64,000 bases of DNA, from contig JBBSXO010000002.1 of assembly GCA_038045705.1 (NCBI GenBank), forward strand, positions 1 through 64,000, written 5' to 3'. The stretch's first letter is position 1. Each line of letters opens with the position of its first letter. This stretch comes from Nanobdellota archaeon. Lineage in GTDB: Archaea; Nanobdellota; Nanobdellia; Pacearchaeales; GW2011-AR1. Positions 2,128 through 63,647 of this stretch are shown piece after piece. The notes beneath the pieces are model-generated. The model did not search any database and was not told the origin of the DNA. It saw only the letters and a list, made by a program, of their open reading frames with translations. A program made the translations under genes and the position numbers.

Positions 2128-2637
2128 CTACGATGCATTTAATTTATCTCTTAAAGTTCTTCTAGCACGAAATAAATTTTTTCTAAATTTTGGATCATTT
2201 TTCCTTCCTGTATTTTGGATGTAAGAAGAAAATGCTTTTAACTGACAATCTGGTAAACACTCTACTTCTCGAGCGATAATTTCCTCAAGTTCTTTAGAAA
2301 GTAATTCATCAAAGGGAGTTATAGATCTTAAAGCAATTTTTCTTCCTACAAATTCTTCTTCAGTCGGTTTATACCCAGAATCTGTCCAACGATCTCTACA
2401 AAGATTACCAAAAGAAGTATAAATAAAAGAAGGCATAGTCTCTCGCCGAATAACCTTTCCACTAAATAGATATCTATGCAATTTAATATATAAATCTTGT
2501 ACAAAATCTTCAGATCTAGGAGAATCAAAACCAAACTTTCTTTTCCCATACCTTAGTAGTTTTGGCATTAACCCATTAACTGCAACAGCCAATTCTTCAT
2601 AACTTACTTGATCGGAATCTTTTTCAACAAAGTCCAT
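2128..2637 (-). CDS. ECF sigma-70-like protein (region 2 plus shortened region 4)
   Basis: SEDFVQDLYIKL...SFIYTSFGNLCRDRW resembles sigma region 2; LPDCQLKAF...LFRARRTLRDKL resembles region 4. Confidence 0.7.
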   Translation of the reverse strand: MDFVEKDSDQVSYEELAVAVNGLMPKLLRYGKRKFGFDSPRSEDFVQDLYIKLHRYLFSGKVIRRETMPSFIYTSFGNLCRDRWTDSGYKPTEEEFVGRKIALRSITPFDELLSKELEEIIAREVECLPDCQLKAFSSYIQNTGRKNDPKFRKNLFRARRTLRDKLNAS

Positions 2638-2706
2638 GAGTATAATATAAAATTTATTGAGATATATAGATATTTATATTTTTAAAAGTTCTGAGAAATA
2701 ATGTCA

Positions 2707-3258
2707 TTAAATTTCAATTTCCAAGACACCAACTCTAGAAAGTCTTTCTTTAAGTTTATCTCTAGCTCTATTAATTTTTGCCCTTTTAGCACCTGATTTA
2801 TATGCCTCTTTTAATTCACCTAATTGACTTAAAATTACTCTTTGATAATTTTTAGACAATTTAGATATCTCTTGCATTACAATTTTAGAATTTTCATCTT
2901 CAACTAATTGACTAATAGGTTCCACAGCATTTGTGTCAATCAAGTCATCATCAAGACATTCAAATTTGAGTCTTTTTCTAGAATTTCTTCTACGTAATTC
3001 ATCGATACAATTTCTATCAAATGCTCTTGCAATATAACCTTTTAGACCACTTCCAAATTCAACAAAATTTTCTGTCATTAAATTACGATAAACTTCAAGA
3101 GCAGTATCTGCCTTTAAATCTTCAGCAATGTCCCAAGGTAGCCCGTAAGATTTAGCTCTTCTAATAAGTTTTTCTTCAAGTTCATCAAATATTGATGGAA
3201 GTCTTTCTATCAGTCCAGCATTTATTTCAACATAGCCTATTTTAGTCATAGTGTCCAT
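2707..3258 (-). CDS. ECF sigma-70-like protein (region 2 plus shortened region 4)
   Basis: AEDLKADTALEVY...LKGYIARAFDRNCIDELRRR; LSKNYQRVI...AKINRARDKLKERL. Confidence 0.7.
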   Translation of the reverse strand: MDTMTKIGYVEINAGLIERLPSIFDELEEKLIRRAKSYGLPWDIAEDLKADTALEVYRNLMTENFVEFGSGLKGYIARAFDRNCIDELRRRNSRKRLKFECLDDDLIDTNAVEPISQLVEDENSKIVMQEISKLSKNYQRVILSQLGELKEAYKSGAKRAKINRARDKLKERLSRVGVLEIEI

Positions 3259-11069: not shown

Positions 11070-14000
11070 TCATTCTTTTTTAGATTTATTCTTTATCTTC
11101 TTATCAACCAGAGCACCAGTTATTTTTACAAGTAATCCAGGTAGTCCTGTACCTACAGGTATAGGTTGGTTAAGAATAATATTTTCGATAACAGAAGCTA
11201 AATCATCTTTCTTACCTTGTATCGTAGCATTTACAAATTGTTTATCAGGTGTCTCGAAAGCTGCTCTAGCAAATATACTTGATTTGTTTGAGATAATTCC
11301 CATTCTTGTAACCCCTTTAACGAGGCCAGTATTTGTCATCGCATCAGATATTAAATCCAAGTGTCTCTCATCAATATCTAAACCTTGAGAGTCAAGAACC
11401 TTTTTAATTTCAAGTAATATAGCTTCTCTAGCAGCTTCAATTCCAAGAACTTGAGCAACTTCATGAACATTGTTTGTAAAGACTTTATTTTTATCAACTC
11501 CCTTAATTTCAATTACTTCTTTAAGATTACTTCCACTAGTTAGTACAACAAAGTCTTTTCCCCTATGAGCAACAACAACTTGTGATATATCTTTAACCCC
11601 TGAAATAATTGTTTTCTTTAATTTCTCTTTCATCTTATACATCTCTTTGAATCCTAATTCAGTTGTCTTCAAAATAATTGAATTATCTTTTTGTTTAGCG
11701 TCAATTCCTTTTTCATTTAATCTTTCTGCAATCTTTTGGGCACCAACATGAACTCTCTTAAGAGCATCAGAATCTAGTTCTATCTCTATCTTTTTTCCAG
11801 AAAAGTCCATTTTAACTTCTGAAGCAATTTCTTCAAGTTTGACTTCCTTAAGTTTTTCAGCAATGCTTCTTGCATCTTTTTCATTATTGAAATCTTTATC
11901 AAGATAAATCTCCATTGCAGGAGTAGAAGGTTCTTTTCTAGCATCAAATATTTCAATTAATCTAGGAAGACCTAAAGTAACCTGCACTTCAGCAACTCCA
12001 GCAGAGTGGAATACGTTCAAAACCATCTGCGTTGAAGATTCTCCAAATGATTGTGATGTTGTAACTCCAACAGATTCTCCAGCTTGTATTTTTTTACCAG
12101 TATGTAATTCAGAAACATCTCTACCATCTCCACCATATAAAAATTGAACAATATTCTGTGAAGCATCTCTAACAGTTCCATCATATTCCACTTTCAAATC
12201 TTGAAGAGCACTTACAAGTCTTCTATACAAGTAACCAGATTTAGGGGTTCTCAAAGCTGTATCCATTAATCCATCTCTTCCAGTAATTGCTCCAAAGAAA
12301 AATTCAGTCGGTTTCAATCCTTCAAAGAATGAAGATTTAATGAATCCCTTAGCCTCTGAACCAACATCTCCTTTCTTGAAGTGAGAAGTTGTTCTCCCTG
12401 CATACCCAAAACTAATACGTTTATTCCACAAGATCTGCTGTCCAACACAACATCCAATTTGTGTAACATTAGTTGCACTACCCTTAGCTCCAGAAAGAAT
12501 CATTTTACTTATGCTACTTTCACGAGAAATATTTTCCTTTACAATCTTACTTGCAGAAGATAGAACTTCGTTCAAAGCTTGAGAAATCTTAATTTCTTTA
12601 GTTTCATCAATAGTTTTACCGGGAAGCAATTCCAAGTCTCCAGATCTTGCATCTTCAGCAATCTTATTAGTTTTCTTTACAGTTTCTTCGATAATATTAT
12701 CTGTAAGTTCCTTAACTTTACCAGATACATCTAAATCACGTAAACCTATAGAGAAACCTCTTCTAGTCAAATATGAAACTCCAAGTGCAGATGCTCTTTG
12801 AATTGTATCAAATGTAGCATCTCGCCCATGCACTTTATCAATTTGTTTTACCATAGAACCATCTTCAAGTCCTAACGTTGATTCACTTGTGATATCTTTA
12901 GGTACAGTAAGCTCATTGCCCTTAGGAAGAATACCACCAAAGACATCTATCCCACTAATATTTTTTTGTTTAACATTAAATATCACTCCAGCACTAAACA
13001 GCAACTGTTCAGCGTCAGATTTTTCAAAATTATCCTTTCCTAAAACATAATTTCCAGTAAGAGAATCAAGAGTAAGTCCAATCAAGTTCGAATTGTTTTT
13101 CGTAGACATTATATTATGTTTAATATTAAGCAAAGTTTCAGCCTCAGATCTAGCTTCTTCAGTTTGTGGAGAGTGTATGTTAACTTCATCTCCATCAAAG
13201 TCAGCGTTATATGGAAATACAACTGCAGGATGCAATCTAAATGTCTTATAAGGCAAAACTCTAACATAATGAGCCATTAAGCTCTGCTTATGAAGTGAAG
13301 GATGTCTGTTAAACAGTACAATATCCCCATCAACCAAATGTCTTTCAACTTTATATCCAGGGACAAGTTCAGTGCAAATTTCTTCTTTTAATTCCTCTGT
13401 GATTCTCTTTTTCTTCCCGTCAGGTCTTATAACATAATTGGCTCCCGGGTGTTGATCTCCCTTTCTCACAAGTGCCCTCATATATTCTAAGTTTGTACTT
13501 GTAACCCCCTCAGCAACAGTGATTATTTTAGCAACTTCAAAAGGAACTCCAACTTCATCAAGAGCCAAATAAGGATCAGGTGAAACTACAGTTCTTGCAG
13601 AGAAGTTAACTCTTTTACCAGCTAAGTTCTTCCTAATTCTTCCTTCTTTACCTTTAATCCTTTCAGTTATTGTCTTCAAAGGCTGTCCAGACCTATGCCT
13701 TGCTGGAGGAATCTTAGAAATATTATTATCAAAGAATGTTGTAACATGGTATTGTAATAAGTCCCAAAGGTCTTCAATAATTACTTCAGGAGCTCCAGCA
13801 TTCAAATTTTCCCACAATCTCTGATTTGCTCTTATAATATCTGAAATCTTGTGAGTCAAGTCATCTTCACTTCTTTCTCCTGTGTCAAGAGTAATAGAAG
13901 GTCTCATTGTAACACTAGGTACAAGCAACTGTGAAAGAATTGCCCACTCAGGTCTAAATGTTTTAGGATTAACTCCAATCTTTTTTATTTCTTCATCCTT

Positions 14001-14513
14001 AATCTTAACAAGCATCTCTCTTATTTCGTTAGGGAATAATCTTTTTTTTCCAGTATAGAAAGAAGTTGGTTTCTCTAATTTTATTTTTTCAGCATCAACG
14101 TTACAGAAAGGACACTTTTTCTTATCTCTAGCCTTCTTAGCTCTTTCGATAGGTGTGTATTTCTTCTGTTTATCTTCTTCCAAAGTTAATTTTCCGCAAG
14201 AGTGACAGAAACTTCTCAAGAATAACTCAATCAAAGGAATATATTTAATATGCACAATAGGTCTAGCCAATTCAACACTACCGGGATGTCCAAGACATTC
14301 CTTAAGACGACCACCACAAGTTCTACATCTTACCCCAGGGTCAACAGCTCCAAGACGTAGATCCATAAGACCCCCATCTACAGGGAATCCATCAATATCA
14401 TAAAGTTCAGGTGTTACAATTTTAGCAGTACTTAACTTCTTAATTTGTTCTGGATTGACTAAACTAAATCTAAGTGATTTTACTTGCTTCTTTATTATTT
14501 CAGGGTTTGCCAT
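11070..14513 (-). CDS. rpoA: RNA polymerase subunit A (A' and A'' fused)
   Basis: CRTC/CLGH Zn site, catalytic YNADFDGDE, then A''-type TQMVLNVFHSAG and TLGLPRLIE in one frame. Confidence 0.97.
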   Translation of the reverse strand: MANPEIIKKQVKSLRFSLVNPEQIKKLSTAKIVTPELYDIDGFPVDGGLMDLRLGAVDPGVRCRTCGGRLKECLGHPGSVELARPIVHIKYIPLIELFLRSFCHSCGKLTLEEDKQKKYTPIERAKKARDKKKCPFCNVDAEKIKLEKPTSFYTGKKRLFPNEIREMLVKIKDEEIKKIGVNPKTFRPEWAILSQLLVPSVTMRPSITLDTGERSEDDLTHKISDIIRANQRLWENLNAGAPEVIIEDLWDLLQYHVTTFFDNNISKIPPARHRSGQPLKTITERIKGKEGRIRKNLAGKRVNFSARTVVSPDPYLALDEVGVPFEVAKIITVAEGVTSTNLEYMRALVRKGDQHPGANYVIRPDGKKKRITEELKEEICTELVPGYKVERHLVDGDIVLFNRHPSLHKQSLMAHYVRVLPYKTFRLHPAVVFPYNADFDGDEVNIHSPQTEEARSEAETLLNIKHNIMSTKNNSNLIGLTLDSLTGNYVLGKDNFEKSDAEQLLFSAGVIFNVKQKNISGIDVFGGILPKGNELTVPKDITSESTLGLEDGSMVKQIDKVHGRDATFDTIQRASALGVSYLTRRGFSIGLRDLDVSGKVKELTDNIIEETVKKTNKIAEDARSGDLELLPGKTIDETKEIKISQALNEVLSSASKIVKENISRESSISKMILSGAKGSATNVTQIGCCVGQQILWNKRISFGYAGRTTSHFKKGDVGSEAKGFIKSSFFEGLKPTEFFFGAITGRDGLMDTALRTPKSGYLYRRLVSALQDLKVEYDGTVRDASQNIVQFLYGGDGRDVSELHTGKKIQAGESVGVTTSQSFGESSTQMVLNVFHSAGVAEVQVTLGLPRLIEIFDARKEPSTPAMEIYLDKDFNNEKDARSIAEKLKEVKLEEIASEVKMDFSGKKIEIELDSDALKRVHVGAQKIAERLNEKGIDAKQKDNSIILKTTELGFKEMYKMKEKLKKTIISGVKDISQVVVAHRGKDFVVLTSGSNLKEVIEIKGVDKNKVFTNNVHEVAQVLGIEAAREAILLEIKKVLDSQGLDIDERHLDLISDAMTNTGLVKGVTRMGIISNKSSIFARAAFETPDKQFVNATIQGKKDDLASVIENIILNQPIPVGTGLPGLLVKITGALVDKKIKNKSKKE

Positions 14514-14514
14514 T

Positions 14515-17500
14515 TTATTGTTCGTATTTGTTTTTTAGTTCAAATGAAGTTAATATATGTAATCCTAGTAATTCTTCAACTAGAAGTTTGAAAGCGTAAG
14601 CAACTTCAATAGGTTCAATGTCATTTCCTCCACAGATAGGACAGTAAGTCTTGTTTCTAATTCCATCCTTAACCCCAATATTTCCACAAGATGAACAAAT
14701 GTAAATGGTAGTTTTATCAGAATCATATCTTTCTTTCAATAACAATGAAGCTCCATGCGCAACCAGTGCTTGTTGTTCCATTTCTCCAAGTCTTAATGCT
14801 CCACCTCTAGCTCTTCCTTCAACTGGCTGACGAGTCAACAATGTAACTTTACCAGAAGCACGAGCCTGTAATTTGTTTTTTACCATATGAACAAGTTTTA
14901 AGTAATACATATTACCAACATAAATTCTTGCATCCATTTTTCTTCCTGTAACTCCATCATACATTTCTTCTTTTCCATCAAAACTAAAGCCCATATGTGT
15001 CAATTGTTTTTCCAAATCTTCAACCTTAGCACCTGTGAAAGGCGTGCCATCAATGAATCTTCCAGTAATTGCTCCAACTTTTCCAGCAAGAACTTCAATC
15101 ATATACCCAACAGTCATTCTAGAAGGAATACCATGAGGATTGAAAATTAAGTCAGGTTTAACTCCCTTTGATGTGAATGGGATATCTTTCGGATCAGCCA
15201 ATAAACCAACTACACCTTTCTGTCCATGAGGTGTAGAAAATTTGTCTCCCGGTTCAGGTAGTCTATGATCTCTTATTCTTACTCTCGCAATTTTATTTCC
15301 TTCACTATCAGTTGTTATAAATACGCTGTCAACAATTCCTGATTCTCCTTGTTTAATCGCAACACTCCCTTCTTTCTTTGATTGTATACTTAAGTTCCTT
15401 GCTTCAGAAAGGAATTTAGGAGGCGTAGTTCTACCAATAATAACTTCAGATGCAGACAATTGAGCTTCAGGGTAAACAATTCCATCATCTTCAAGCAATC
15501 TGTAAGATGTTTCTGTCCTATATCCAGAAACGTCCTTATCAGGAATAGTAATTTCATCTTTTAACCCACCAGCATAATTGAATTCAATAGATTCATATGG
15601 TTTGAAATAAGTACTTCTACCCATCCCTCTTTCAACACTTGCTCTATTCAATATTGTAGCGTCTTCTAAGTTATATCCTTCATAAGGCATAACTGCAACA
15701 ACGATGTTTTGACCAGCAGGATAAAGCTTCAAAGTGTCAAAAACGAAACTCTTTACAAGAGGATTTTGTGGATAATGTAATATAGAAGAATTAGTATCCA
15801 TTCTAACTAAATAGTTAGCAGCATAAATTCCAAGGCTTTGACGTAAAGTTTTACTCCCTCTTAACAAACGTGAAGCCTGGTCATGATTTGCGAAAGGTAC
15901 AAGTGAAGTTACTAAACCAAATATAGCTACAGGGTCAATCTCCAAATGAGTATGTTTATCAGTTACACCTTCAAGTGTCTGAGCAACAAATGCATCTTCT
16001 TCTTCAGCAGCATCAATGTATTCTAAAACTCCCTCTTTCAATAACTCGCGCCAATTTAGCGAGCCTTGTTCAAGCAAAACTAAATGTTCATCTTTAAGCC
16101 TACTAGCGCCATGTTCGACGACTATCAAAGGTCTTAAAACTCTTCCAACTTCAGTAGAAATTATGACTGTCTTTGCTGGACTATCACTAGTGATACTTAA
16201 TTCAATAGGGAAATGTCCCTTTCTTCTTTCCTTTCTAACTGCATTTACAAATAATTCTACATCCTTAGACATTCCAATATATTTACCATTAAAGAATACA
16301 TCTTTACCATCTTCTTCATTCAATCCAAGAGATTGTATTTGTTTAACAAGATTTTTTTCATCAATATCAACAGCATTAGAAATCTTAGATAATATAGCAA
16401 GATTTTTTCTCAAACCAATTTCAGTTCCTTCTGGTGTCTCAGTAGGACAGAATCTTCCATAGTGAGTAGGATGCAGTGTTCTTGCTAAAAAGTTCTCTTG
16501 CTCATCAGGTAACATTGAAGAAACTCTTTGAAGAGAAGATAACATGTCAAGATAATTGTTCTTAGACATATTCTGAGTAACACCACTTCTCTCTCCAATC
16601 CAAGCACCTGTAGCAATAGCACTTTCAACTCTGTGTGTAAATAATGTAGACTTAGCAACAGTTTTTACTGAATAGAATTTCTTTCTTTTTGCAACTTTTT
16701 GTAATGTATACTGAATATCCTTCACAAGTATATTCATATTAACTCTAAACAAATCAGCAAGTAAGTCTCCAGAAAGCTTTATCCTCTTATTAGCATAATG
16801 GTCTTTGTCTGTTCTAAGATTATCATCTTGTTTTGCCTGTAAAAACTGCTTAAGCATCTTGCACAAGTTAATTGCCTTTTCAATCCTGTATTCTTTTGTT
16901 AAACCAATATGGGGTATAAAGTAAGAATCAACTCTTTGTTTTACTCTATCAAGGATCTCTTTTTCAGTTCCTTGTATTCCCGAAAGTTCAGCAACTATCA
17001 TAAAGGCATCTTTAGACTGTTGTATCTTAGCATATTCATATAAATTAACAATAACTGAATCATCTTGTCTACCAATATACTTAGCAATTTCAGCTTCAGT
17101 TAATACACCTAGTGCTTTAATCATGACAATAGCTGGGATATTCTTCAATCTTGAGAATGTAACCTCAAGAATTCCCTCTGCAGTTTCAGAAATTGTTGTG
17201 GGTATTCTATAAGGTCCCCTTTGAGAAAACATACGCAATGTTAATCCGCGTCTTCCCTCTTCAATAAATGGCTGATTAGGTGCAAGATCCTCTGCCATAA
17301 CAATTACTCTTTCATTTCCATTAACTATAAAATATCCTCCAGGGTCAAGAGGATCCATTAAAGATTCTCTTAATTCATCTTTAGACATACCATGGGTATT
17401 ACATGTATCACTCTTTACAATAACTGGTATTCTTCCAATTTCAACTTCAGCACTGTCAGAATTATCTCCAAAATTAACCGTAATTTCAACATAAATAGGC

Positions 17501-17766
17501 GCAGAATATGTAATTCTTCTTAACCTCGCTTCGGTTGGTGTTATCAACGAAATACTACCATCAGATTCAGTTACATTTGGTTTTCCAATTCTTATCTTTC
17601 CAAATTTTATCTTAACTTCCTCTTGAGGGATGGTATCATTTAATTCATAAACTATCTGTTGCATTCTCCTTGAAACAAAATCATTAAAGCTTCTTATACT
17701 TGATTCCACTAACGAATGCTGTTGCAAATATTTCTTAATCAAAATATGCTTATCAGTTACGGTCAT
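14515..17766 (-). CDS. rpoB: RNA polymerase subunit B (unsplit)
   Basis: GYFIVNGNERV, GDKFSTPHGQKG, LRLGEME, C-terminal Zn ribbon. Confidence 0.97.
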   Translation of the reverse strand: MTVTDKHILIKKYLQQHSLVESSIRSFNDFVSRRMQQIVYELNDTIPQEEVKIKFGKIRIGKPNVTESDGSISLITPTEARLRRITYSAPIYVEITVNFGDNSDSAEVEIGRIPVIVKSDTCNTHGMSKDELRESLMDPLDPGGYFIVNGNERVIVMAEDLAPNQPFIEEGRRGLTLRMFSQRGPYRIPTTISETAEGILEVTFSRLKNIPAIVMIKALGVLTEAEIAKYIGRQDDSVIVNLYEYAKIQQSKDAFMIVAELSGIQGTEKEILDRVKQRVDSYFIPHIGLTKEYRIEKAINLCKMLKQFLQAKQDDNLRTDKDHYANKRIKLSGDLLADLFRVNMNILVKDIQYTLQKVAKRKKFYSVKTVAKSTLFTHRVESAIATGAWIGERSGVTQNMSKNNYLDMLSSLQRVSSMLPDEQENFLARTLHPTHYGRFCPTETPEGTEIGLRKNLAILSKISNAVDIDEKNLVKQIQSLGLNEEDGKDVFFNGKYIGMSKDVELFVNAVRKERRKGHFPIELSITSDSPAKTVIISTEVGRVLRPLIVVEHGASRLKDEHLVLLEQGSLNWRELLKEGVLEYIDAAEEEDAFVAQTLEGVTDKHTHLEIDPVAIFGLVTSLVPFANHDQASRLLRGSKTLRQSLGIYAANYLVRMDTNSSILHYPQNPLVKSFVFDTLKLYPAGQNIVVAVMPYEGYNLEDATILNRASVERGMGRSTYFKPYESIEFNYAGGLKDEITIPDKDVSGYRTETSYRLLEDDGIVYPEAQLSASEVIIGRTTPPKFLSEARNLSIQSKKEGSVAIKQGESGIVDSVFITTDSEGNKIARVRIRDHRLPEPGDKFSTPHGQKGVVGLLADPKDIPFTSKGVKPDLIFNPHGIPSRMTVGYMIEVLAGKVGAITGRFIDGTPFTGAKVEDLEKQLTHMGFSFDGKEEMYDGVTGRKMDARIYVGNMYYLKLVHMVKNKLQARASGKVTLLTRQPVEGRARGGALRLGEMEQQALVAHGASLLLKERYDSDKTTIYICSSCGNIGVKDGIRNKTYCPICGGNDIEPIEVAYAFKLLVEELLGLHILTSFELKNKYEQ

Positions 17767-38557: not shown

Positions 38558-39214
38558 TTATCTATTTGATGATCTCTGAGTTGCTAAACTACAAGCGCAT
38601 TTTAGTAAGAGATCACGGTTTGATTCAATACGTTTTTTAAGCCCGCCCATTCCATTAATTTCAGCATTTAAATATTCCTCACGATTAGCATATTCAATTG
38701 CAGCTTCTCTGATTCTTCCTTTATTAAGTAATTCGCGAGTCTTAGGACTATCTGCAAGATCTCCTCTATAAGCCATATCAACAAGAGCTTTTTTTCCATT
38801 CAAAGGGAAATTTTTAAAATCAGGAACAAGTCTTTGAGCAACCTCTAAATGTCTCTTTAAGTCAGCTAAAAACAAAATATTAACTTGTTTATCAGTTAAG
38901 AAAATTTTTCCGTTTTTTACTGAATCATAATCTACTCCTTCTAAAGCATCTTCAAATGTTTTTTTGGATCTAGGTGCCCCAAGATAATGTCCTATCCCTA
39001 TAGTTGGTTCATAAACTGTAGCAGAAGGATTAGCATCATATACCTTATTTCTTCTGCCCTCGAAACTCCCAGTATATTCTGCAAAGATTTGCATTTCATC
39101 AATCAACCTAAGTTCTACATTTGCCAGATCTTTTCTAAATAAATATTTTAATCCAATAAATCCAACAGTAAAACCAGTCAATGCTAACAAAGATTTTTTT
39201 AATGTTTTGTGCAT
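38558..39214 (-). CDS. GH24/T4-type lysozyme-like protein with N-terminal membrane anchor
   Basis: FEG..VYD..TIGIGH (as in T4 lysozyme) and ALVDMAY. Confidence 0.8.
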   Translation of the reverse strand: MHKTLKKSLLALTGFTVGFIGLKYLFRKDLANVELRLIDEMQIFAEYTGSFEGRRNKVYDANPSATVYEPTIGIGHYLGAPRSKKTFEDALEGVDYDSVKNGKIFLTDKQVNILFLADLKRHLEVAQRLVPDFKNFPLNGKKALVDMAYRGDLADSPKTRELLNKGRIREAAIEYANREEYLNAEINGMGGLKKRIESNRDLLLKCACSLATQRSSNR

Positions 39215-39321: not shown

Positions 39322-41046
39322 ATGAGGATACTTACATTACATTGCGACTATATCAAGTTCAAAGCTCTTAAAAAAGCAATAAAGAGCATAGAAGATTTAT
39401 CTGAAGAAGAAAAAGAGTCTAAAGAAGTGAAAGAATGTCTTGTTATTTTAACTTCAATAGAACAAGGAGACACAGAAAAAACAATCCATCAATTAGTAGA
39501 AGCGGTTGAAAAAACAGCAAAAGAAGTCAAAACAGATAAAATAGTACTATATCCTTATGCACATCTGTCATCAAACTTAGCAAAACCACAAATAGCTTTA
39601 GAATTATTAAAAGAAGCAGAATCTCAATTAAGTAAAAAATTCAAAACAATTAGAGCTCCATTTGGTTATTATAAGGAATTTGAATTCAAATGCAAAGGTC
39701 ATCCATTGGCAGAGTTAAGTAAGGAATTTAGGCAAGAAGACTCAGTAGAGACTAAATCAAAAATGGTCTCGAAAGAAGAACCAATAGATTCTTCAAAATT
39801 ATTAAATCAAATATCTCGTTCAAAGCTAGATACATCAAAACTAAAAGACAACGACCACAGAATCCTAGGACAAAGACTTGACTTATTCAGTTTCAATGAA
39901 GTAGCTCCTGGAATGGTTTTCTGGCATAATAACGGTTTAACAATATATAATGAATTAGTGGGCTTCTGGAGAGATGAACAGAAAAAAGAGAATTATCTAG
40001 AAATAAAAACTCCTCAAATAATGGATTCAAAATTATGGAAAGTATCAGGTCATTGGGACAAATATAAAGAAAATAACTTTATCACAGATTATGAAGGCAG
40101 ATCATTCCTTGTCAAACCAATGAACTGTCCTGGAGGAATGCTGGTCTTCAAAGCAAACTCAAAATCCTACAGAGACTTACCTTTAAAAGTTTCAGAAATG
40201 GGGACAGTTCACAGAACTGAGCTTTCAGGTGTCATTAACGGACTGTTTAGAGTAATACAATTTACCCAAGATGATGCTCATATATTCTGCGCAGACGAAC
40301 CTCAGGCAGAATTAGAGATATTAGAAGTAATAAAACTAATAAAAAGATTTTATGAAAAATTCAAATTAGAATTTGATCACGTAGAACTCTCAACAAGACC
40401 TGAAAAAAGAATAGGTTCTGACGAAATGTGGAATAATGCTGAAAGTTTGTTAGAAAAAGCATTAAAGAAAGCTAAGATTAAATATGGTGTAAAAAAAGGA
40501 GAAGGTGCATTCTATGGTCCAAAAATCGACTTTCACGTGAAAGACTCTTTAGAAAGAACTTGGCAGGTTTCAACCATACAGCTTGATTTTGCGATGCCCG
40601 AAAGATTCGAATTAGAATTCACAGATAAAGATAATCATCAAAAAAGACCAATAATGCTTCACAGAGTAATCTATGGTTCATTAGAAAGATTTATAGGCAT
40701 TTTACTAGAGCACACAAACGGAGCTTTACCATTATGGTTATCTCCAAGACAAGTCAGAGTTATATCATTTACAGATAGAAATGATAAGGCAACTGAAAAA
40801 CTAGCTCAAGAACTAAAAGAATTAATCCCATCAATAAGAATAGATACTGATACTCGTTCAGACACAGTTCAATCAAAGATCAGAGATGCAGAAATGCTAA
40901 AAGTAAATTATACATTAGTTGTAGGAGATAAAGAAGAAGAAAATGATACTCTAGCTATAAGACCTAGAGGTGGAAAACCGCAATTTAATGTAAATAAAGA
41001 TAAATTTGTAAAACAGTTAAAAGAAGAATTATCCAAAAGACTATAA
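39322..41046 (+). CDS. thrS: Threonine--tRNA ligase
   Basis: Archaeal editing domain (YPYAHLSS, APFGYYK), KPMNCPG, AFYGPKID, GSLERF. Confidence 0.97.
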   Translation: MRILTLHCDYIKFKALKKAIKSIEDLSEEEKESKEVKECLVILTSIEQGDTEKTIHQLVEAVEKTAKEVKTDKIVLYPYAHLSSNLAKPQIALELLKEAESQLSKKFKTIRAPFGYYKEFEFKCKGHPLAELSKEFRQEDSVETKSKMVSKEEPIDSSKLLNQISRSKLDTSKLKDNDHRILGQRLDLFSFNEVAPGMVFWHNNGLTIYNELVGFWRDEQKKENYLEIKTPQIMDSKLWKVSGHWDKYKENNFITDYEGRSFLVKPMNCPGGMLVFKANSKSYRDLPLKVSEMGTVHRTELSGVINGLFRVIQFTQDDAHIFCADEPQAELEILEVIKLIKRFYEKFKLEFDHVELSTRPEKRIGSDEMWNNAESLLEKALKKAKIKYGVKKGEGAFYGPKIDFHVKDSLERTWQVSTIQLDFAMPERFELEFTDKDNHQKRPIMLHRVIYGSLERFIGILLEHTNGALPLWLSPRQVRVISFTDRNDKATEKLAQELKELIPSIRIDTDTRSDTVQSKIRDAEMLKVNYTLVVGDKEEENDTLAIRPRGGKPQFNVNKDKFVKQLKEELSKRL

Positions 41047-41292
41047 TTATAACACAAATACCCAATATCTATCTTTACGCTCTTCAAGTGAATAAAAACT
41101 TAAAGTCTTGTTATTTGGCAAAACAAATGTTCTTTTTAAATAAGGATCTAAATCAATCCTTTCAAGACCTAAGACATCACAAAATGCCCTCTGTATTTCA
41201 GAGTATGATCTATAACCACTAGACCACCACCCTAACAACCTTCTTTTTAGTACAGGAATTTCTCTTCTAGTTATCAAAGGTTCATCTTCCAC
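41047..41292 (-). CDS. Hypothetical protein
   Basis: 81-aa ORF (GTG start). Confidence 0.45.
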   Translation of the reverse strand: MEDEPLITRREIPVLKRRLLGWWSSGYRSYSEIQRAFCDVLGLERIDLDPYLKRTFVLPNNKTLSFYSLEERKDRYWVFVL

Positions 41293-41356
41293 AATAATAC
41301 CATGAAAATAGTATTATTAAACTTAATTTATTATAACCCATTTATACATTAATTAT

Positions 41357-41893
41357 TCAATCATCTCTATCTTGAGATCTACAGTATTCTCCAACAGATT
41401 TTATTGCGTTCCTTATTCTTCTACAAACTTCCTCCATTTTCAATCCAAGTAATTCAGAAATTTCTTTATAATCTACGCCATTAAGCGCAAGAGAAAGAGC
41501 TTCACCGCGACGACGAGGAATCAGGGGTAATACTCTTCTTACTTTTTCAAATTCTTCCCGTTCAATAATTTTATCTAATGTATTAGGAGCCTCTACATAA
41601 CAAATCAAACTTGGATTTTTTAATGATTTTAATCTTTTCGCATTGCGGAAGTAATCCATACAAGAATTAGTAAAAATAACATATGCGAGTCCTCGTAAAG
41701 TTCTAGGTATTAATTTACCATCTCTGGCAAGAACAAGTAATTTATAAGCAGTATCTTGAAAAAAGTCTTGAGCTACATCTAAAGAAAGATTATATCTCAT
41801 ACGACCCAAATTAACTAGGAGTCGTTCCAAATAGACTAATGACTCAGCTAAATCAGTATCTTTTTCTTCAATAGTTTCATCAAAACGAACCAT
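41357..41893 (-). CDS. ECF sigma-70-like protein with intact region 4 HTH
   Basis: AQDFFQDTAYKL...AYVIFTNSCMDYFRN; GVDYKEISELLGLKMEEVCRRIRNA. Confidence 0.8.
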   Translation of the reverse strand: MVRFDETIEEKDTDLAESLVYLERLLVNLGRMRYNLSLDVAQDFFQDTAYKLLVLARDGKLIPRTLRGLAYVIFTNSCMDYFRNAKRLKSLKNPSLICYVEAPNTLDKIIEREEFEKVRRVLPLIPRRRGEALSLALNGVDYKEISELLGLKMEEVCRRIRNAIKSVGEYCRSQDRDD

Positions 41894-41997
41894 GACTTAA
41901 AAATTATAAATTTACTTTTAAAACTATCTCCTGTGGTAAAAATTGGCGACATATTTATATATCAATTATTCAATAACTAAATATCAAGAGGCTCATA

Positions 41998-42633
41998 ATG
42001 AAAATTCAACCATACGTCCAAAAACTTCAAACATCTGAAAAATATAAAAAGTTTATAAAAGAAAACGCAGAATCATTTCTAGTCGCAGGATTCTTTGTTT
42101 TAGATTATGAGGCTGGGATGAATGTACATCAAATAGATTATTATGTACCATCGAAAAGACAAGTTGCAGCATTTAATTTAGACGGGGAAGTCGAAGTTCG
42201 TCTTTTAGATATGATGCATAAAGAAAAAAAACCTGAAAAATTAGATATTAGAACAAAAGTAGATCTTGACGCATTAAAAGGAATTCTTGAAGATGAGATG
42301 AAGAACAGAAATATAACTGAAACTATAAAAAAATGTGTTGCAGTTATTCAGATGGTAGATGGCAAAAAATTATGGGTATTAAATTGTGTCCTTTCAGGCA
42401 TGGAAATATTAAAAGCCCATGTAGATGATGAATCAAGAACAGTTTTAAAAATGGAAAAATCTTCAATGCTTGACTATGTAAAAAAAATGCCTGCTATGCC
42501 TCAACAAAGTCCTAAAGCAAATAAAGAAACTCTTCAAAAACAAATTGAGCAATTAAATAAATTAAAAGAACAATTAGAGAATGAAAAAGCCCAATTAGAT
42601 AAGCAAGGAAAGTCTAGTGAAAACGTAGAATAA
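41998..42633 (+). CDS. Hypothetical protein with coiled-coil tail
   Basis: 211-aa ORF with housekeeping-like composition. Confidence 0.7.
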   Translation: MKIQPYVQKLQTSEKYKKFIKENAESFLVAGFFVLDYEAGMNVHQIDYYVPSKRQVAAFNLDGEVEVRLLDMMHKEKKPEKLDIRTKVDLDALKGILEDEMKNRNITETIKKCVAVIQMVDGKKLWVLNCVLSGMEILKAHVDDESRTVLKMEKSSMLDYVKKMPAMPQQSPKANKETLQKQIEQLNKLKEQLENEKAQLDKQGKSSENVE

Positions 42634-63543: not shown

Positions 63544-63647
63544 GCGCGGGTAGTATAGTGGTTAGTATACGACGTTGCCACTTTTTCCCTTTAGTAAGAA
63601 GAGAAAGCAAAGACGTTGTGGCCCGGGTTCAATTCCCGGCCCGCGCA
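63544..63647 (+). tRNA. tRNA-Gly(GCC) with 32-nt intron at 37/38 (63581-63612)
   Basis: GCGCGGG/CCCGCGC acceptor, CGACG/CGTTG stem, BHB core TTGC/GCAA. Confidence 0.93.

What the first reader, a model, noticed from the sequence alone, without database searches (positions are those of the whole stretch)
41357..41893. Third sigma-like paralog with a complete region-4 HTH, 38 kb away
Seen: AQDFFQDTAYKL and NSCMDYFR (region 2) plus GVDYKEISELLGLKMEEVCRRIRNA (full region 4.2), with TTTAAA ~25 bp upstream and no anti-sigma-like neighbour. It is clearly divergent from the two at 2.1-3.3 kb. Inference: long residence and diversification rather than one recent transfer, giving full-length and HTH-truncated variants with possibly different roles.
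Basis: partly seen in the sequence, partly recalled or inferred. Interest (0 to 1): 0.75.

Follow-up and report, generated by a model that had tools for sequence, protein, structure and literature searches.

The report
Fast-evolving sigma-like gene in DPANN archaeon
This is an intact gene for a bacterial-type (ECF) sigma-factor-like protein in a tiny DPANN archaeon that has no bacterial RNA polymerase; such genes were already reported in these archaea, and what they do there is still unknown.

Summary
Window 41357-41893 (-) is an intact 178-aa ORF carrying the quoted motifs. It passes NCBIfam's sigma70-ECF model (52.3 bits, cut-off 42.9). It folds as sigma2 plus sigma4 (pLDDT 84.7), and its best structural matches are ECF sigma factors.

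The host is a Pacearchaeota/Woesearchaeota-type DPANN archaeon (844 kb). Its only RNA polymerase large subunit is archaeal.

That is the genome's sharp TATA-box mode (38 of 458 long ORFs), so the gene carries a native archaeal promoter.

New here:
- The gene and an 81-aa winged-helix-like ORF fill a ~900-bp hypervariable slot between thrS and a conserved 211-aa gene.
- Congeners keep the flanks at 62-89% protein identity, but their slot sigma-likes are 22-29% identical to this one.
- Orthologous slot sigma-likes in relatives have dN/dS 0.25-0.31; the neighbouring gene has 0.03-0.09.
- A careful tree puts all three window paralogs in one clade (98/90) with other archaeal copies.
- No close relative exists in 1.84 billion representative proteins (best 30%).

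Sigma-70 genes in DPANN without anti-sigma partners were reported by Castelle et al. 2021. This is therefore a new member of a known, functionally unexplained kind.

The parts
41357..41893 (-). Gene for a 178-aa ECF-type sigma-70-family protein
   Evidence: ORF. TIGR02937 52.3 bits against a cut-off of 42.9. AF2 model pLDDT 84.7. Foldseek best matches are ECF sigmas.
41621..41860 (-). Sigma2-like domain (residues 12-91; three helices; holds AQDFFQDTAYKL and NSCMDYFR)
   Evidence: Helices 12-33, 38-57 and 66-91. Weak Sigma70_r2 stretch at 33-87. N76 is nearly invariant among 104 aligned ECF-like proteins.
41363..41581 (-). Sigma4-like domain (residues 105-177; four helices with the region 4.2 helix-turn-helix)
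   Evidence: Helices 105-124, 127-137, 142-149 and 153-177. Sigma70_r4_2 at 116-165, E 4e-5. Foldseek match to E. coli sigmaE region 4 on -35 DNA (2h27_D): TM by target 0.78, rmsd 2.1 over 64 columns.
41405..41479 (-). Region 4.2 motif GVDYKEISELLGLKMEEVCRRIRNA (residues 139-163)
   Evidence: Translation. It aligns to the HTH of ECF sigmas.
41917..41922 (-). TTTAAA, archaeal TATA-box-like element starting at -29 from the ATG
   Evidence: Position. TTTAAA starts at -29 in 38 of 458 ORFs of 200 aa or more in this genome, against 0-4 per position away from the -31 to -26 peak.
41047..41292 (-). Co-directional 81-aa ORF (GTG start) of a fast-evolving small-protein family; weakly winged-helix-like fold
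   Evidence: Homologs in the same slot in 9 other same-genus genomes, with BLASTP hits to this ORF at 34-37% identity. AF2 pLDDT 90.4, pTM 0.79. Best fold matches are weak only: VIA Z 5.3 to the MCM8 WH domain, Foldseek E 0.077. No Pfam family.
41047..41940 (.). Hypervariable slot between thrS and the promoter of the conserved 211-aa gene
   Evidence: Nine same-genus loci were compared by blastn. Homology ends at window 40942-41077 in the 8 loci that include thrS. It resumes at 41939-41954 in all 9. No match lies in between.

Best explanation
Shown. This is an intact gene for a two-domain (sigma2 + sigma4) ECF-type sigma-70-family protein. It is resident in a Pacearchaeota/Woesearchaeota-type DPANN archaeon. 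It belongs to a lineage-specific, rapidly diverging set of archaeal sigma-like paralogs, and it carries the genome's standard TATA box. With a small winged-helix-like ORF it fills a hypervariable slot between two conserved genes.

Inferred.
- It is transcribed by the archaeal machinery as a leaderless or near-leaderless mRNA.
- The protein acts as a sequence-specific DNA-binding transcription regulator through its region 4.2 helix-turn-helix, and possibly region 2. It does so in a cell whose only RNA polymerase is archaeal.
- It therefore cannot act as a classical sigma subunit of a bacterial core enzyme encoded by the same genome.

Open: whether it touches the archaeal polymerase or works as a stand-alone activator or repressor.

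I put about 0.9 on the identity and residence part and about 0.4 on the regulator mechanism. The confidence figure below blends the two.
For: Family and fold.
- TIGR02937 scores 52.3 bits against a cut-off of 42.9.
- The AF2 model has pLDDT 84.7 with a sigma2 and a sigma4 helical domain.
- The best Foldseek PDB matches are ECF sigmas (SigE, SigH, sigmaE, AlgU). Region 4 matches sigmaE region 4 on -35 DNA with TM by target 0.78.
- The best PDB sequence hit is RpoE, 9n9q_C, E 4.5e-5.

Archaeal host.
- The window holds Rpb1/Rpb2-type polymerase genes, aEF1A, aEF2 and the archaea-specific ThrRS editing domain.
- TFB is present on contig 9.
- The bacterial beta' model TIGR02386 gives only sub-threshold matches, all inside the archaeal Rpo1.
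- Relatives' record titles read Woesearchaeota, Pacearchaeota or Nanoarchaeota.

Native expression signal. TTTAAA starts exactly at -29. That is the mode for 38 of 458 long ORFs, and the same position as in thrS and in the paralog at C5:25688-26290.

Residence and diversification.
- One clade (98/90) holds the target, the two other window paralogs, G000 C3 and 10 congener copies.
- The AU test gives p 0.997.
- One unlabelled clade member is named by NCBI as a Woesearchaeota sigma factor on a 325-kb contig.
- TIGR02937 is over its cut-off in 17 of 41 relatives.
- It is over its cut-off in 131 of 301 high-quality genomes of the phylum. This tally includes the unpublished G283 and G284. At the same E <= 1e-8 threshold, 0 of 4 reference archaea and 10 of 10 bacteria matched.

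Constraint.
- Slot orthologs in G002, G003 and G016 have dN/dS 0.25-0.31, against 0.03-0.09 for the neighbouring gene.
- R83 (region 2) and R162 (region 4.2 helix) are nearly invariant across 12 archaeal sigma-likes.
Against: - No experiment or transcript data bear on function.
- Both single Pfam domain models are below their gathering scores.
- The target has no ortholog above about 30% identity, so its own selective regime is unmeasured.
- The family is patchy. A full-length sigma-like sits in the slot in only 4 of 16 genus loci, and there is one sigma2-only remnant.
- Two paralogs in the same window lack most of the HTH. This fits relaxed constraint or ongoing decay as well as it fits regulation.
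- dN and dS between the target and the other slot copies are saturated (dN 0.75-1.10, dS 0.75-1.22). Orthology by descent versus replacement cannot be settled.
- No target promoter motif was sought or found.
Confidence: 0.55

Rival explanations
1. It is a slowly decaying remnant of an old bacterial gene family with little or no present function. It survives only because the ORF has not yet been hit.
For: - Patchy presence: 4 of 16 genus loci carry a full-length copy in the slot, one carries a sigma2-only 100-aa remnant, and three have no ORF of 70 aa or more there.
- There are HTH-truncated paralogs in the same window.
- dN is 2.3 to 7 times that of the neighbouring gene.
- It is a singleton with no relative above 30% identity.
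- No bacterial polymerase is there to serve.
Against: - The frame is intact and both domains are modelled with confidence.
- The TATA box sits at the exact modal position.
- dN/dS is 0.25-0.51 in the measurable relatives, well below 1.
- The family is kept in 131 of 301 genomes of a phylum with strongly reduced genomes.
- Key arginines are conserved.
Confidence: 0.2
2. It still works as a true sigma subunit, but for a bacterial-type RNA polymerase that this genome does not encode. That polymerase would belong to a bacterial partner or to a mobile element or virus.
For: Regions 2.1/2.2 and 4.2 keep the ECF consensus, which in bacteria serves core binding and -35 recognition (roles from textbook knowledge). 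The genome is 91.5% complete, so a gene could be missing.
Against: - There is no bacterial beta' anywhere in 844 kb.
- tblastn of the protein found nothing in 50,697 phage or 72,556 plasmid records at E <= 0.01.
- There are no PADLOC hits, and only a weak PHROG sigma hit.
- The gene's own promoter is archaeal.
- The protein has no secretion signal that I could see. This was not formally tested.
- Known DPANN hosts are archaea (recalled).
Confidence: 0.08
3. The slot is a cassette-exchange hotspot. The sigma-like gene, with the small ORF, was swapped in from a distant relative by recombination and did not diverge in place. Its role is tied to conflict, such as virus or host interaction.
For: - Homology breaks sharply at both edges of the slot in all loci compared.
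- There are three very different sigma-like types in the same position: G000; G002/G003/G016; and G005, where the gene order is reversed relative to the small ORF.
- Two DNA contigs from one study fit the window up to 41362 and up to 41923 and then run on unlike. Those are the edges of the gene plus its TATA box (one contig each in X4 and X7).
Against: - The family's measured rate excess is 2.3 to 7.1 times the neighbour's dN. It predicts dN 0.34-1.05 for G000 vs G016, and the observed value is 0.91. Divergence in place is therefore enough (my arithmetic).
- The small ORF diverges just as fast and is present without a sigma gene in 6 loci.
- There are no defence or phage family hits.
- No flanking repeats were examined.
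Confidence: 0.17

Closest known systems
Bacterial ECF (group 4) sigma factors, e.g. E. coli sigmaE, M. tuberculosis SigH/SigE, P. aeruginosa AlgU
   Same: Length of about 180 aa. Sigma2 + sigma4 architecture with no region 1.1 or 3. Region 2 and region 4.2 motifs. Passes NCBIfam TIGR02937. These are the best fold matches.
   Different: The host is an archaeon with no bacterial core polymerase. The gene's own promoter is an archaeal TATA box, not an autoregulated ECF promoter. No recognisable anti-sigma partner. Identity to any database protein is at most about 30%.
Sigma-70-like protein family of DPANN archaea (fam00359 of Castelle et al. 2021, PMC8204110; I read the one passage found with 'sigma')
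   Same: Sigma-70-class genes in DPANN genomes, most prevalent in Woesearchaeota. No anti-sigma factors found. Co-occurrence with TBP/TFB/TFE. Control mechanism unknown. My phylum scan agrees (131 of 301).
   Different: The paper's family list is in a supplementary table that I could not open, so membership of this protein is not checked. In the passage I read, the paper does not describe the hypervariable slot, the rate excess, the TATA position or the truncated paralogs.
SigmaE of the dCas12f RNA-guided transcription complex (PDB 9n9q chain C; PMC12259090 and PMC12259091 seen in a search listing only)
   Same: Best PDB sequence match (E 4.5e-5, residues 27-167) and second-best Foldseek match. 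NCBIfam's Bacteroidota-type model NF058625 is the second-best family for the target.
   Different: That protein is 261 aa and works with bacterial RNAP and a Cas12f homolog. No Pfam family was found for the adjacent ORFs here. The score is far below that family's cut-off (37.5 vs 130 bits).
Archaeal general initiation factor TFB
   Same: If the protein does contact the archaeal polymerase at promoters, it would work in the same step as TFB. TFB is present in this genome.
   Different: No sequence or fold relationship. TFB matched the sigma model only through its last HTH-like stretch (16.5 bits).

Membership tests
ECF-type sigma-70 family (NCBIfam TIGR02937; Pfam Sigma70_r2 + Sigma70_r4_2) | Whole-protein score above the curated superfamily cut-off | tested here: met
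   52.3 bits against a cut-off of 42.9, E 4.8e-14, residues 19-167 on model positions 7-161 of 165.
ECF-type sigma-70 family (NCBIfam TIGR02937; Pfam Sigma70_r2 + Sigma70_r4_2) | Each Pfam domain model above its gathering score | tested here: not met
   Sigma70_r4_2 23.6 vs 25.7. Sigma70_r2 12.4 vs 24. The protein is a divergent member. The superfamily model and the fold still place it here.
ECF-type sigma-70 family (NCBIfam TIGR02937; Pfam Sigma70_r2 + Sigma70_r4_2) | Two helical domains, sigma2 and sigma4, joined by a short linker, with no region 1.1 or 3 | tested here: met
   AF2: helices at 12-91 and 105-177, with a low-confidence linker at 96-99. Foldseek best matches are ECF sigmas.
ECF-type sigma-70 family (NCBIfam TIGR02937; Pfam Sigma70_r2 + Sigma70_r4_2) | Conserved region 2 (D..Q....L, N.C.D..R) and region 4.2 HTH motifs | tested here: met
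   D43, Q46, C78, M79, D80, F82, R83, E144, I145 and G150 are invariant in a 5-protein alignment. N76 is nearly invariant among 104 proteins.
ECF-type sigma-70 family (NCBIfam TIGR02937; Pfam Sigma70_r2 + Sigma70_r4_2) | Acts as the promoter-specificity subunit of a bacterial core RNA polymerase | not testable with these tools
The genome has no bacterial beta', so the partner that defines the function is not encoded alongside it.
ECF-type sigma-70 family (NCBIfam TIGR02937; Pfam Sigma70_r2 + Sigma70_r4_2) | Co-encoded cognate anti-sigma factor (typical, not universal) | tested here: inconclusive
   No known anti-sigma family among the neighbours. The downstream 81-aa ORF is of unknown function. 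It also occurs without a sigma gene in 6 same-genus loci.
ECF-type sigma-70 family (NCBIfam TIGR02937; Pfam Sigma70_r2 + Sigma70_r4_2) | Autoregulated ECF-type -35/-10 promoter upstream of its own gene | not tested
   I only saw that the upstream region carries an archaeal TATA box at the modal position. No ECF promoter search was run.
DPANN sigma-70-like family (fam00359, Castelle et al. 2021) | Membership in the paper's protein family | not testable with these tools
Only the text passage was read.
DPANN sigma-70-like family (fam00359, Castelle et al. 2021) | Sigma-70-class protein encoded on a bona fide DPANN contig, with no anti-sigma partner | tested here: met
   The same contig carries archaeal RNAP, EF1A, EF2 and ThrRS. 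The flanks are shared with 15 congeners. No anti-sigma family was found.

The most novel reading that the evidence does not exclude
Nanoarchaeota-type DPANN archaea have turned an acquired ECF sigma scaffold into their own rapidly diversifying family of transcription regulators. These would work with, or beside, the archaeal TBP/TFB/RNAP machinery. They sit in hypervariable genomic slots next to equally fast-evolving small winged-helix-like proteins. That pattern would fit a role in conflict or partner-specific interaction (host or virus) rather than housekeeping.
Probability: 0.3. Interest if true: 0.8.

Novelty: new member of a known kind. Interest (0 to 1): 0.5.

Why it matters
Sigma factors are the textbook bacterial solution to promoter recognition, and archaea use TBP/TFB instead. 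A sigma-fold family kept in nearly half of the sampled genomes of a genome-reduced archaeal phylum, with native archaeal promoters, raises a question: what can a sigma do without its polymerase?

This locus offers a compact test case. It is a full-length copy with a complete HTH. HTH-truncated paralogs lie on the same contig, and positional orthologs in relatives allow evolutionary-rate work.

The presence of such genes in DPANN is already published (PMC8204110). The present gain is in anatomy and evolution, not in discovery of the phenomenon.

Tried and rejected
- Complex prediction. I ran complex prediction of the archaeal Rpo1 N-terminal 350 residues (with the clamp coiled-coil; 26-row alignment) against the sigma-like protein (104-row alignment). 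The score was 0.00 in two runs and the controls were not folded. The verdict was 'no answer', so it is no evidence either way. Two earlier submissions found the queue full.
- Expression. No RNA holder was listed for window 41000-42000. All 8 listed runs are DNA, from 2 studies.
- Named relatives. The search for related loci in genome contigs with alignments A2 and A3 failed because no stretch was conserved enough. The single scan was then spent on EF1A for taxon labels.
- Close homologs. The search for homologous proteins gave only the protein itself.
- Phage or plasmid origin. tblastn found no match at E <= 0.01. PADLOC gave no hit. PHROGs gave only a generic sigma family at E 1.3e-6.
- Quick tree. 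It placed the target outside the archaeal clade, next to P0002 (support 83, long branches meeting). The constrained search found a tree 73 log-likelihood units better, and the careful search then placed the target inside the clade. I rely on the careful tree.
- Small ORF. There is no Pfam family. Foldseek gave no PDB match at E <= 0.001. The best VIA wide score was Z 5.3, below the level that tool's notes call common for unrelated models. 'Winged-helix-like' is therefore only a lead.
- Sigma-like genes next to EF1A. Across 80 Pacearchaeota/Woesearchaeota loci only 3 had any hit, so that arrangement is genus-level.
- ESM Atlas. The look-alikes are all large bacterial ECF clusters. This adds nothing beyond the family name.
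Full report
1. The observation

Window 41357..41893 on the minus strand is an ATG-started ORF of 178 codons. Its translation contains AQDFFQDTAYKL (residues 41-52), NSCMDYFR (76-83) and GVDYKEISELLGLKMEEVCRRIRNA (139-163).

NCBIfam's superfamily model TIGR02937 (sigma70-ECF) matches residues 19-167 at 52.3 bits, above its curated cut-off of 42.9, E 4.8e-14. The two Pfam domain models match the right places but stay under their gathering scores: Sigma70_r4_2 at 116-165 with 23.6 vs 25.7, and Sigma70_r2 at 33-87 with 12.4 vs 24.

An AlphaFold2 model built on 104 aligned relatives has mean pLDDT 84.7. It shows a three-helix domain (12-91), a poorly modelled linker (96-99) and a four-helix domain (105-177).

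Foldseek against the PDB gives 12 chains at E <= 0.001. The best ones are ECF sigma factors in initiation complexes or bound to anti-sigmas: M. tuberculosis SigE, SigH and SigL, E. coli sigmaE and AlgU. Whole-chain TM-scores are low (0.34-0.43) because the two domains are oriented freely. The region 4 match to sigmaE region 4 on -35 DNA (2h27_D) has TM by target 0.78 and rmsd 2.1 over 64 columns. By sequence, the best solved relative is RpoE of an RNA-guided transcription complex, 9n9q_C, E 4.5e-5.

2. The host

The same contig carries Rpb2- and Rpb1-type RNA polymerase genes (14515-17766 and 11070-14513), ribosomal proteins S12 and S7, aEF2, aEF1A and a ThrRS with the archaea-specific editing domain. 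Rfam finds a 104-nt tRNA at 63544-63647, which I read as intron-bearing.

The genome held for this window is 844,273 bases in 10 contigs and 91.5% complete. GC is 0.30-0.36 across the window. Records of the nearest EF1A relatives are titled Candidatus Woesearchaeota, Pacearchaeota or Nanoarchaeota archaeon.

The bacterial beta' model TIGR02386 finds only sub-threshold pieces, all inside the archaeal Rpo1 gene. TFB is present on contig 9. The cell therefore has archaeal transcription machinery and, as far as assembled, no bacterial core enzyme.

3. The promoter

I tabulated TTTAAA starts upstream of the first ATG of all 458 ORFs of 200 aa or more in the genome. 38 start at -29, 12 at -27, 9 at -28 and 7 at -30. 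Positions away from the -31 to -26 peak have 0-4 each. For TTTAWA the count at -29 is 74.

The target shares the exact modal position with thrS and with another sigma-like paralog, C5:25688-26290. With the usual archaeal TATA-to-start spacing (textbook knowledge), this implies a leaderless or nearly leaderless transcript made by the archaeal machinery. That step is inference. No RNA run was available (see Tried and rejected).

4. Paralogs in the genome

TIGR02937 rings at eight places in the genome at E <= 0.01. Only the target is over the cut-off.
- Low-GC sigma-like ORFs are the target, 2707-3258 and 2128-2637 in the window, C5:25688-26290 (200 aa) and C3:127200-127832 (210 aa).
- Two further hits have GC 0.62 and 0.58. 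They lie in GC-rich ends of contigs C5 and C6, and I treat them as foreign or chimeric.
- The other two hits are TFB and an unrelated HTH protein.

The target is 28% identical over 61 aa to 2707-3258 and 30% over 83 aa to 2128-2637. R83 and R162 are nearly invariant.

5. The slot

This is the main new point. The 211-aa gene divergently upstream (41998-42633) is found in 16 of 17 genomes of the genus, G000 included, at 62-89% identity.

In the 16 loci:
- thrS, where it lies in the locus, is 46-84% identical and the CYTH gene 64-85%. The space between thrS and the 211-aa gene varies.
- A full-length sigma-like ORF sits there in 4 loci: G000, G016, G003 and G005.
- G002 has one on a separate contig. 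Its slot is cut by a contig end.
- G001 has a 100-aa sigma2-only ORF (E 9e-11 against my ECF profile).
- A small ORF of 79-110 aa from one family (shared IKRRLxG and YxVYV motifs) is present in 10 loci, 6 of them without a sigma gene.
- Three loci (G014, G011, G008) have no ORF of 70 aa or more in the slot.

By blastn against nine of these loci, homology to the window ends at 40942-41077 and resumes at 41939-41954, with no match between. The variable block is thus about 41047-41940. It holds the small ORF, the sigma-like gene and the sigma gene's own TATA box. The conserved sequence resumes at the promoter of the 211-aa gene.

6. Rates

The slot sigma-likes of G002, G003 and G016 are clear orthologs of one another (58-69% identity).
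- Their NG86 dN is 0.22-0.28, dS 0.87-1.03 and dN/dS 0.25-0.31.
- For the same genome pairs the adjacent 211-aa gene has dN 0.03-0.12. Its dN/dS, where dS could be computed, is 0.03-0.09.
- The rate excess is 2.3 to 7.1-fold (my arithmetic).
- The small ORF behaves alike. Between G009 and G013 it has dN 0.126 against 0.012 for the neighbour.

The target is only 22-28% identical to the other slot sigma-likes in global alignment and 25-29% by BLASTP, with dN 0.75-1.10. Both dN and dS are saturated.

The neighbour's dN between G000 and G016 is 0.148. The measured rate excess predicts 0.34-1.05 for the sigma gene, and 0.91 is observed. Divergence in place at the family's own rate is therefore enough to explain the difference. 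Replacement by a distant allele cannot be excluded.

The window's other two paralogs have orthologs in G012 at 77% and 80% identity, with dN/dS 0.51 and 0.37. Their positional counterparts next to EF1A or the ABC transporter in G009 and G013 are only 23-32% identical.

7. Relatives elsewhere

The search for homologous proteins returned only the protein itself. The exhaustive profile-free search of 1.84 billion representatives gave 147 proteins at E <= 1e-3 but only the query itself at E <= 1e-10. The best other is 30% identical, E 4.4e-8. The top hits are ordinary ECF-like proteins.

Among 41 related genomes, the protein finds matches in 7 (G000 included). These are 6 of 16 other genomes of the genus and 0 of 24 outside it, at 26-33% identity.

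The family model is over its cut-off in 17 of 41 relatives. It is over its cut-off in 131 of 301 genomes sampled evenly across the phylum, all at least 90% complete, and 136 of 301 match at E <= 1e-8. Two of the matching genomes, G283 and G284, are unpublished; without them the figure is 134 of 299 at E <= 1e-8. At that same E <= 1e-8 threshold, all 10 bacteria and none of 4 reference archaea matched. Many matches lie on contigs of hundreds of kilobases.

8. Tree

I aligned 19 archaeal sigma-likes with 69 database hits, 88 rows in all. I left out the 100-aa G001 remnant, two database rows identical or nearly identical to archaeal ones, and database rows longer than 260 aa. 185 columns were kept.

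The quick tree put the target outside a starred 17-row archaeal clade. An AU test holding the target with that clade found a tree 73 log-likelihood units better, p-AU 0.997.

The careful tree then gave the following (the ultrafast bootstrap had not fully settled, correlation 0.986):
- The target, 2707-3258, 2128-2637 and the C3 copy fall in one clade of 22 rows (UFBoot 98 / SH-aLRT 90). It also holds 10 same-genus sigma-likes and 8 unlabelled database proteins.
- An inner 19-row clade (91/90) holds all 14 archaeal rows and 5 unlabelled ones.
- The C5 200-aa copy falls outside on a long branch.

Of the 8 unlabelled rows, one (P0071) is named by NCBI as a sigma-70 family factor of a Candidatus Woesearchaeota archaeon on a 325-kb contig. 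The other 7 carry no organism.

Caveats:
- The database rows were picked as hits of the target only.
- Branches are long.
- Several rows have deviant composition.

The result supports, but does not prove, one archaeal radiation that includes all three window paralogs.

9. What is known

A full-text search for 'sigma factor' with DPANN, archaea and horizontal, and one for 'sigma factor' with Woesearchaeota, found one paper that deals with this. It is Castelle et al. 2021 (PMC8204110).

I read the one passage found with 'sigma'. It reports the following:
- There are sigma-70-class genes (fam00359) in DPANN genomes, particularly in Woesearchaeota.
- Mis-binning was ruled out.
- No anti-sigma factors were found.
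- The control mechanism is unclear.

Its family table is a supplement that I could not open. Searches for 'ECF sigma' with 'archaeal genomes', and for the ECF re-classification with 'archaea', brought nothing on archaeal ECF function in their listings. The phenomenon is therefore in print, and the function is open.

10. Mechanism

Shown:
- an intact sigma2 + sigma4 protein
- an archaeal context
- a native TATA box
- family-level purifying selection with a high rate
- a hypervariable location

Inferred: the protein binds DNA through the region 4.2 HTH and regulates transcription in an archaeal setting. How, or whether, it contacts the archaeal polymerase is unknown.

Rivals are decay of a functionless relic, service to a foreign bacterial-type polymerase, and cassette exchange tied to conflict. 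Their odds are given in the Rival explanations section.

The downstream 81-aa ORF folds with confidence (pLDDT 90.4, pTM 0.79). Its only fold matches are weak ones to winged-helix domains. It is co-directional with the sigma gene in all three loci that have both (G000, G016, G005). Because it also occurs alone, it is not a dedicated anti-sigma.

11. Verdict

This is a new, very divergent member of the already reported DPANN sigma-like proteins. The new anatomical and evolutionary detail makes it a reasonable test case. It is not a new kind of system on present evidence.

Noticed in passing
G000:C5:72000-85135 and G000:C6:1-14000 (outside the window): Two contig ends of about 13-14 kb have GC 0.54-0.61 in a genome of GC 0.32. 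Each carries a GC-rich sigma-like hit: C5:84409-84900, 163 aa, GC 0.62, and C6:5978-6304, 108 aa, region 4 only, GC 0.58. They could be two halves of one foreign island or chimeric assembly ends.
   Followed up: partly
G000:C5:25688-26290 and G000:C3:127200-127832 (outside the window): Two more low-GC sigma-like ORFs (200 and 210 aa). The C5 one has TTTAAA at -29, like the target. The genome therefore has at least five such paralogs, not three.
   Followed up: partly
L025:1098-1400 (G001, slot between thrS and the 211-aa gene): A 100-aa ORF matches only the sigma2 half of the ECF profile (E 9e-11). It looks like a truncated remnant of a slot sigma-like gene.
   Followed up: partly
window 41362 and 41923: In DNA contigs of runs X4 and X7 (one study), one contig each fits the window up to 41362 and up to 41923 and then runs on unlike. 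These places are the stop-codon edge of the sigma gene and the outer edge of its TATA box. This hints at a co-occurring variant at the cassette edges.
   Followed up: no
L036 (G002:C67:2000-3800) and G002:C67:7265-7900: A 357-aa sigma-like ORF (TIGR02937 77.9 bits) lies about 4 kb from the archaeal Rpo1 gene on the same contig. Many phylum members carry such longer sigma-like ORFs, with open frames of 280-1000 aa.
   Followed up: no
window 11070-14513 (-): Rpo1 is one 1147-aa ORF covering Rpb1 domains 1-5. The open frame is 1133-1203 aa in 26 of the 29 related loci of the order listed; the other three frames (1089, 423 and 87 aa) start at or near a contig end. From memory, most archaea split this subunit into A' and A''.
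   Followed up: no
window 63544-63647 (+): Rfam finds a 104-nt tRNA (53.1 bits) that ARAGORN did not report. It probably carries an intron.
   Followed up: no
window 38558-39214 (-): A 218-aa ORF has a Phage_lysozyme domain (E 6.9e-6) just upstream of thrS in an archaeal genome. The adjacent 693-aa ORF has no Pfam family.
   Followed up: no
window 2128-3258 vs L014 (G012): The two HTH-truncated paralogs have dS of only 0.26-0.32 against their G012 orthologs. Every dS computed for genes at the thrS slot was 0.58 or more, for other genome pairs. The G000-G012 background dS was not computed, so the contrast is unverified.
   Followed up: no
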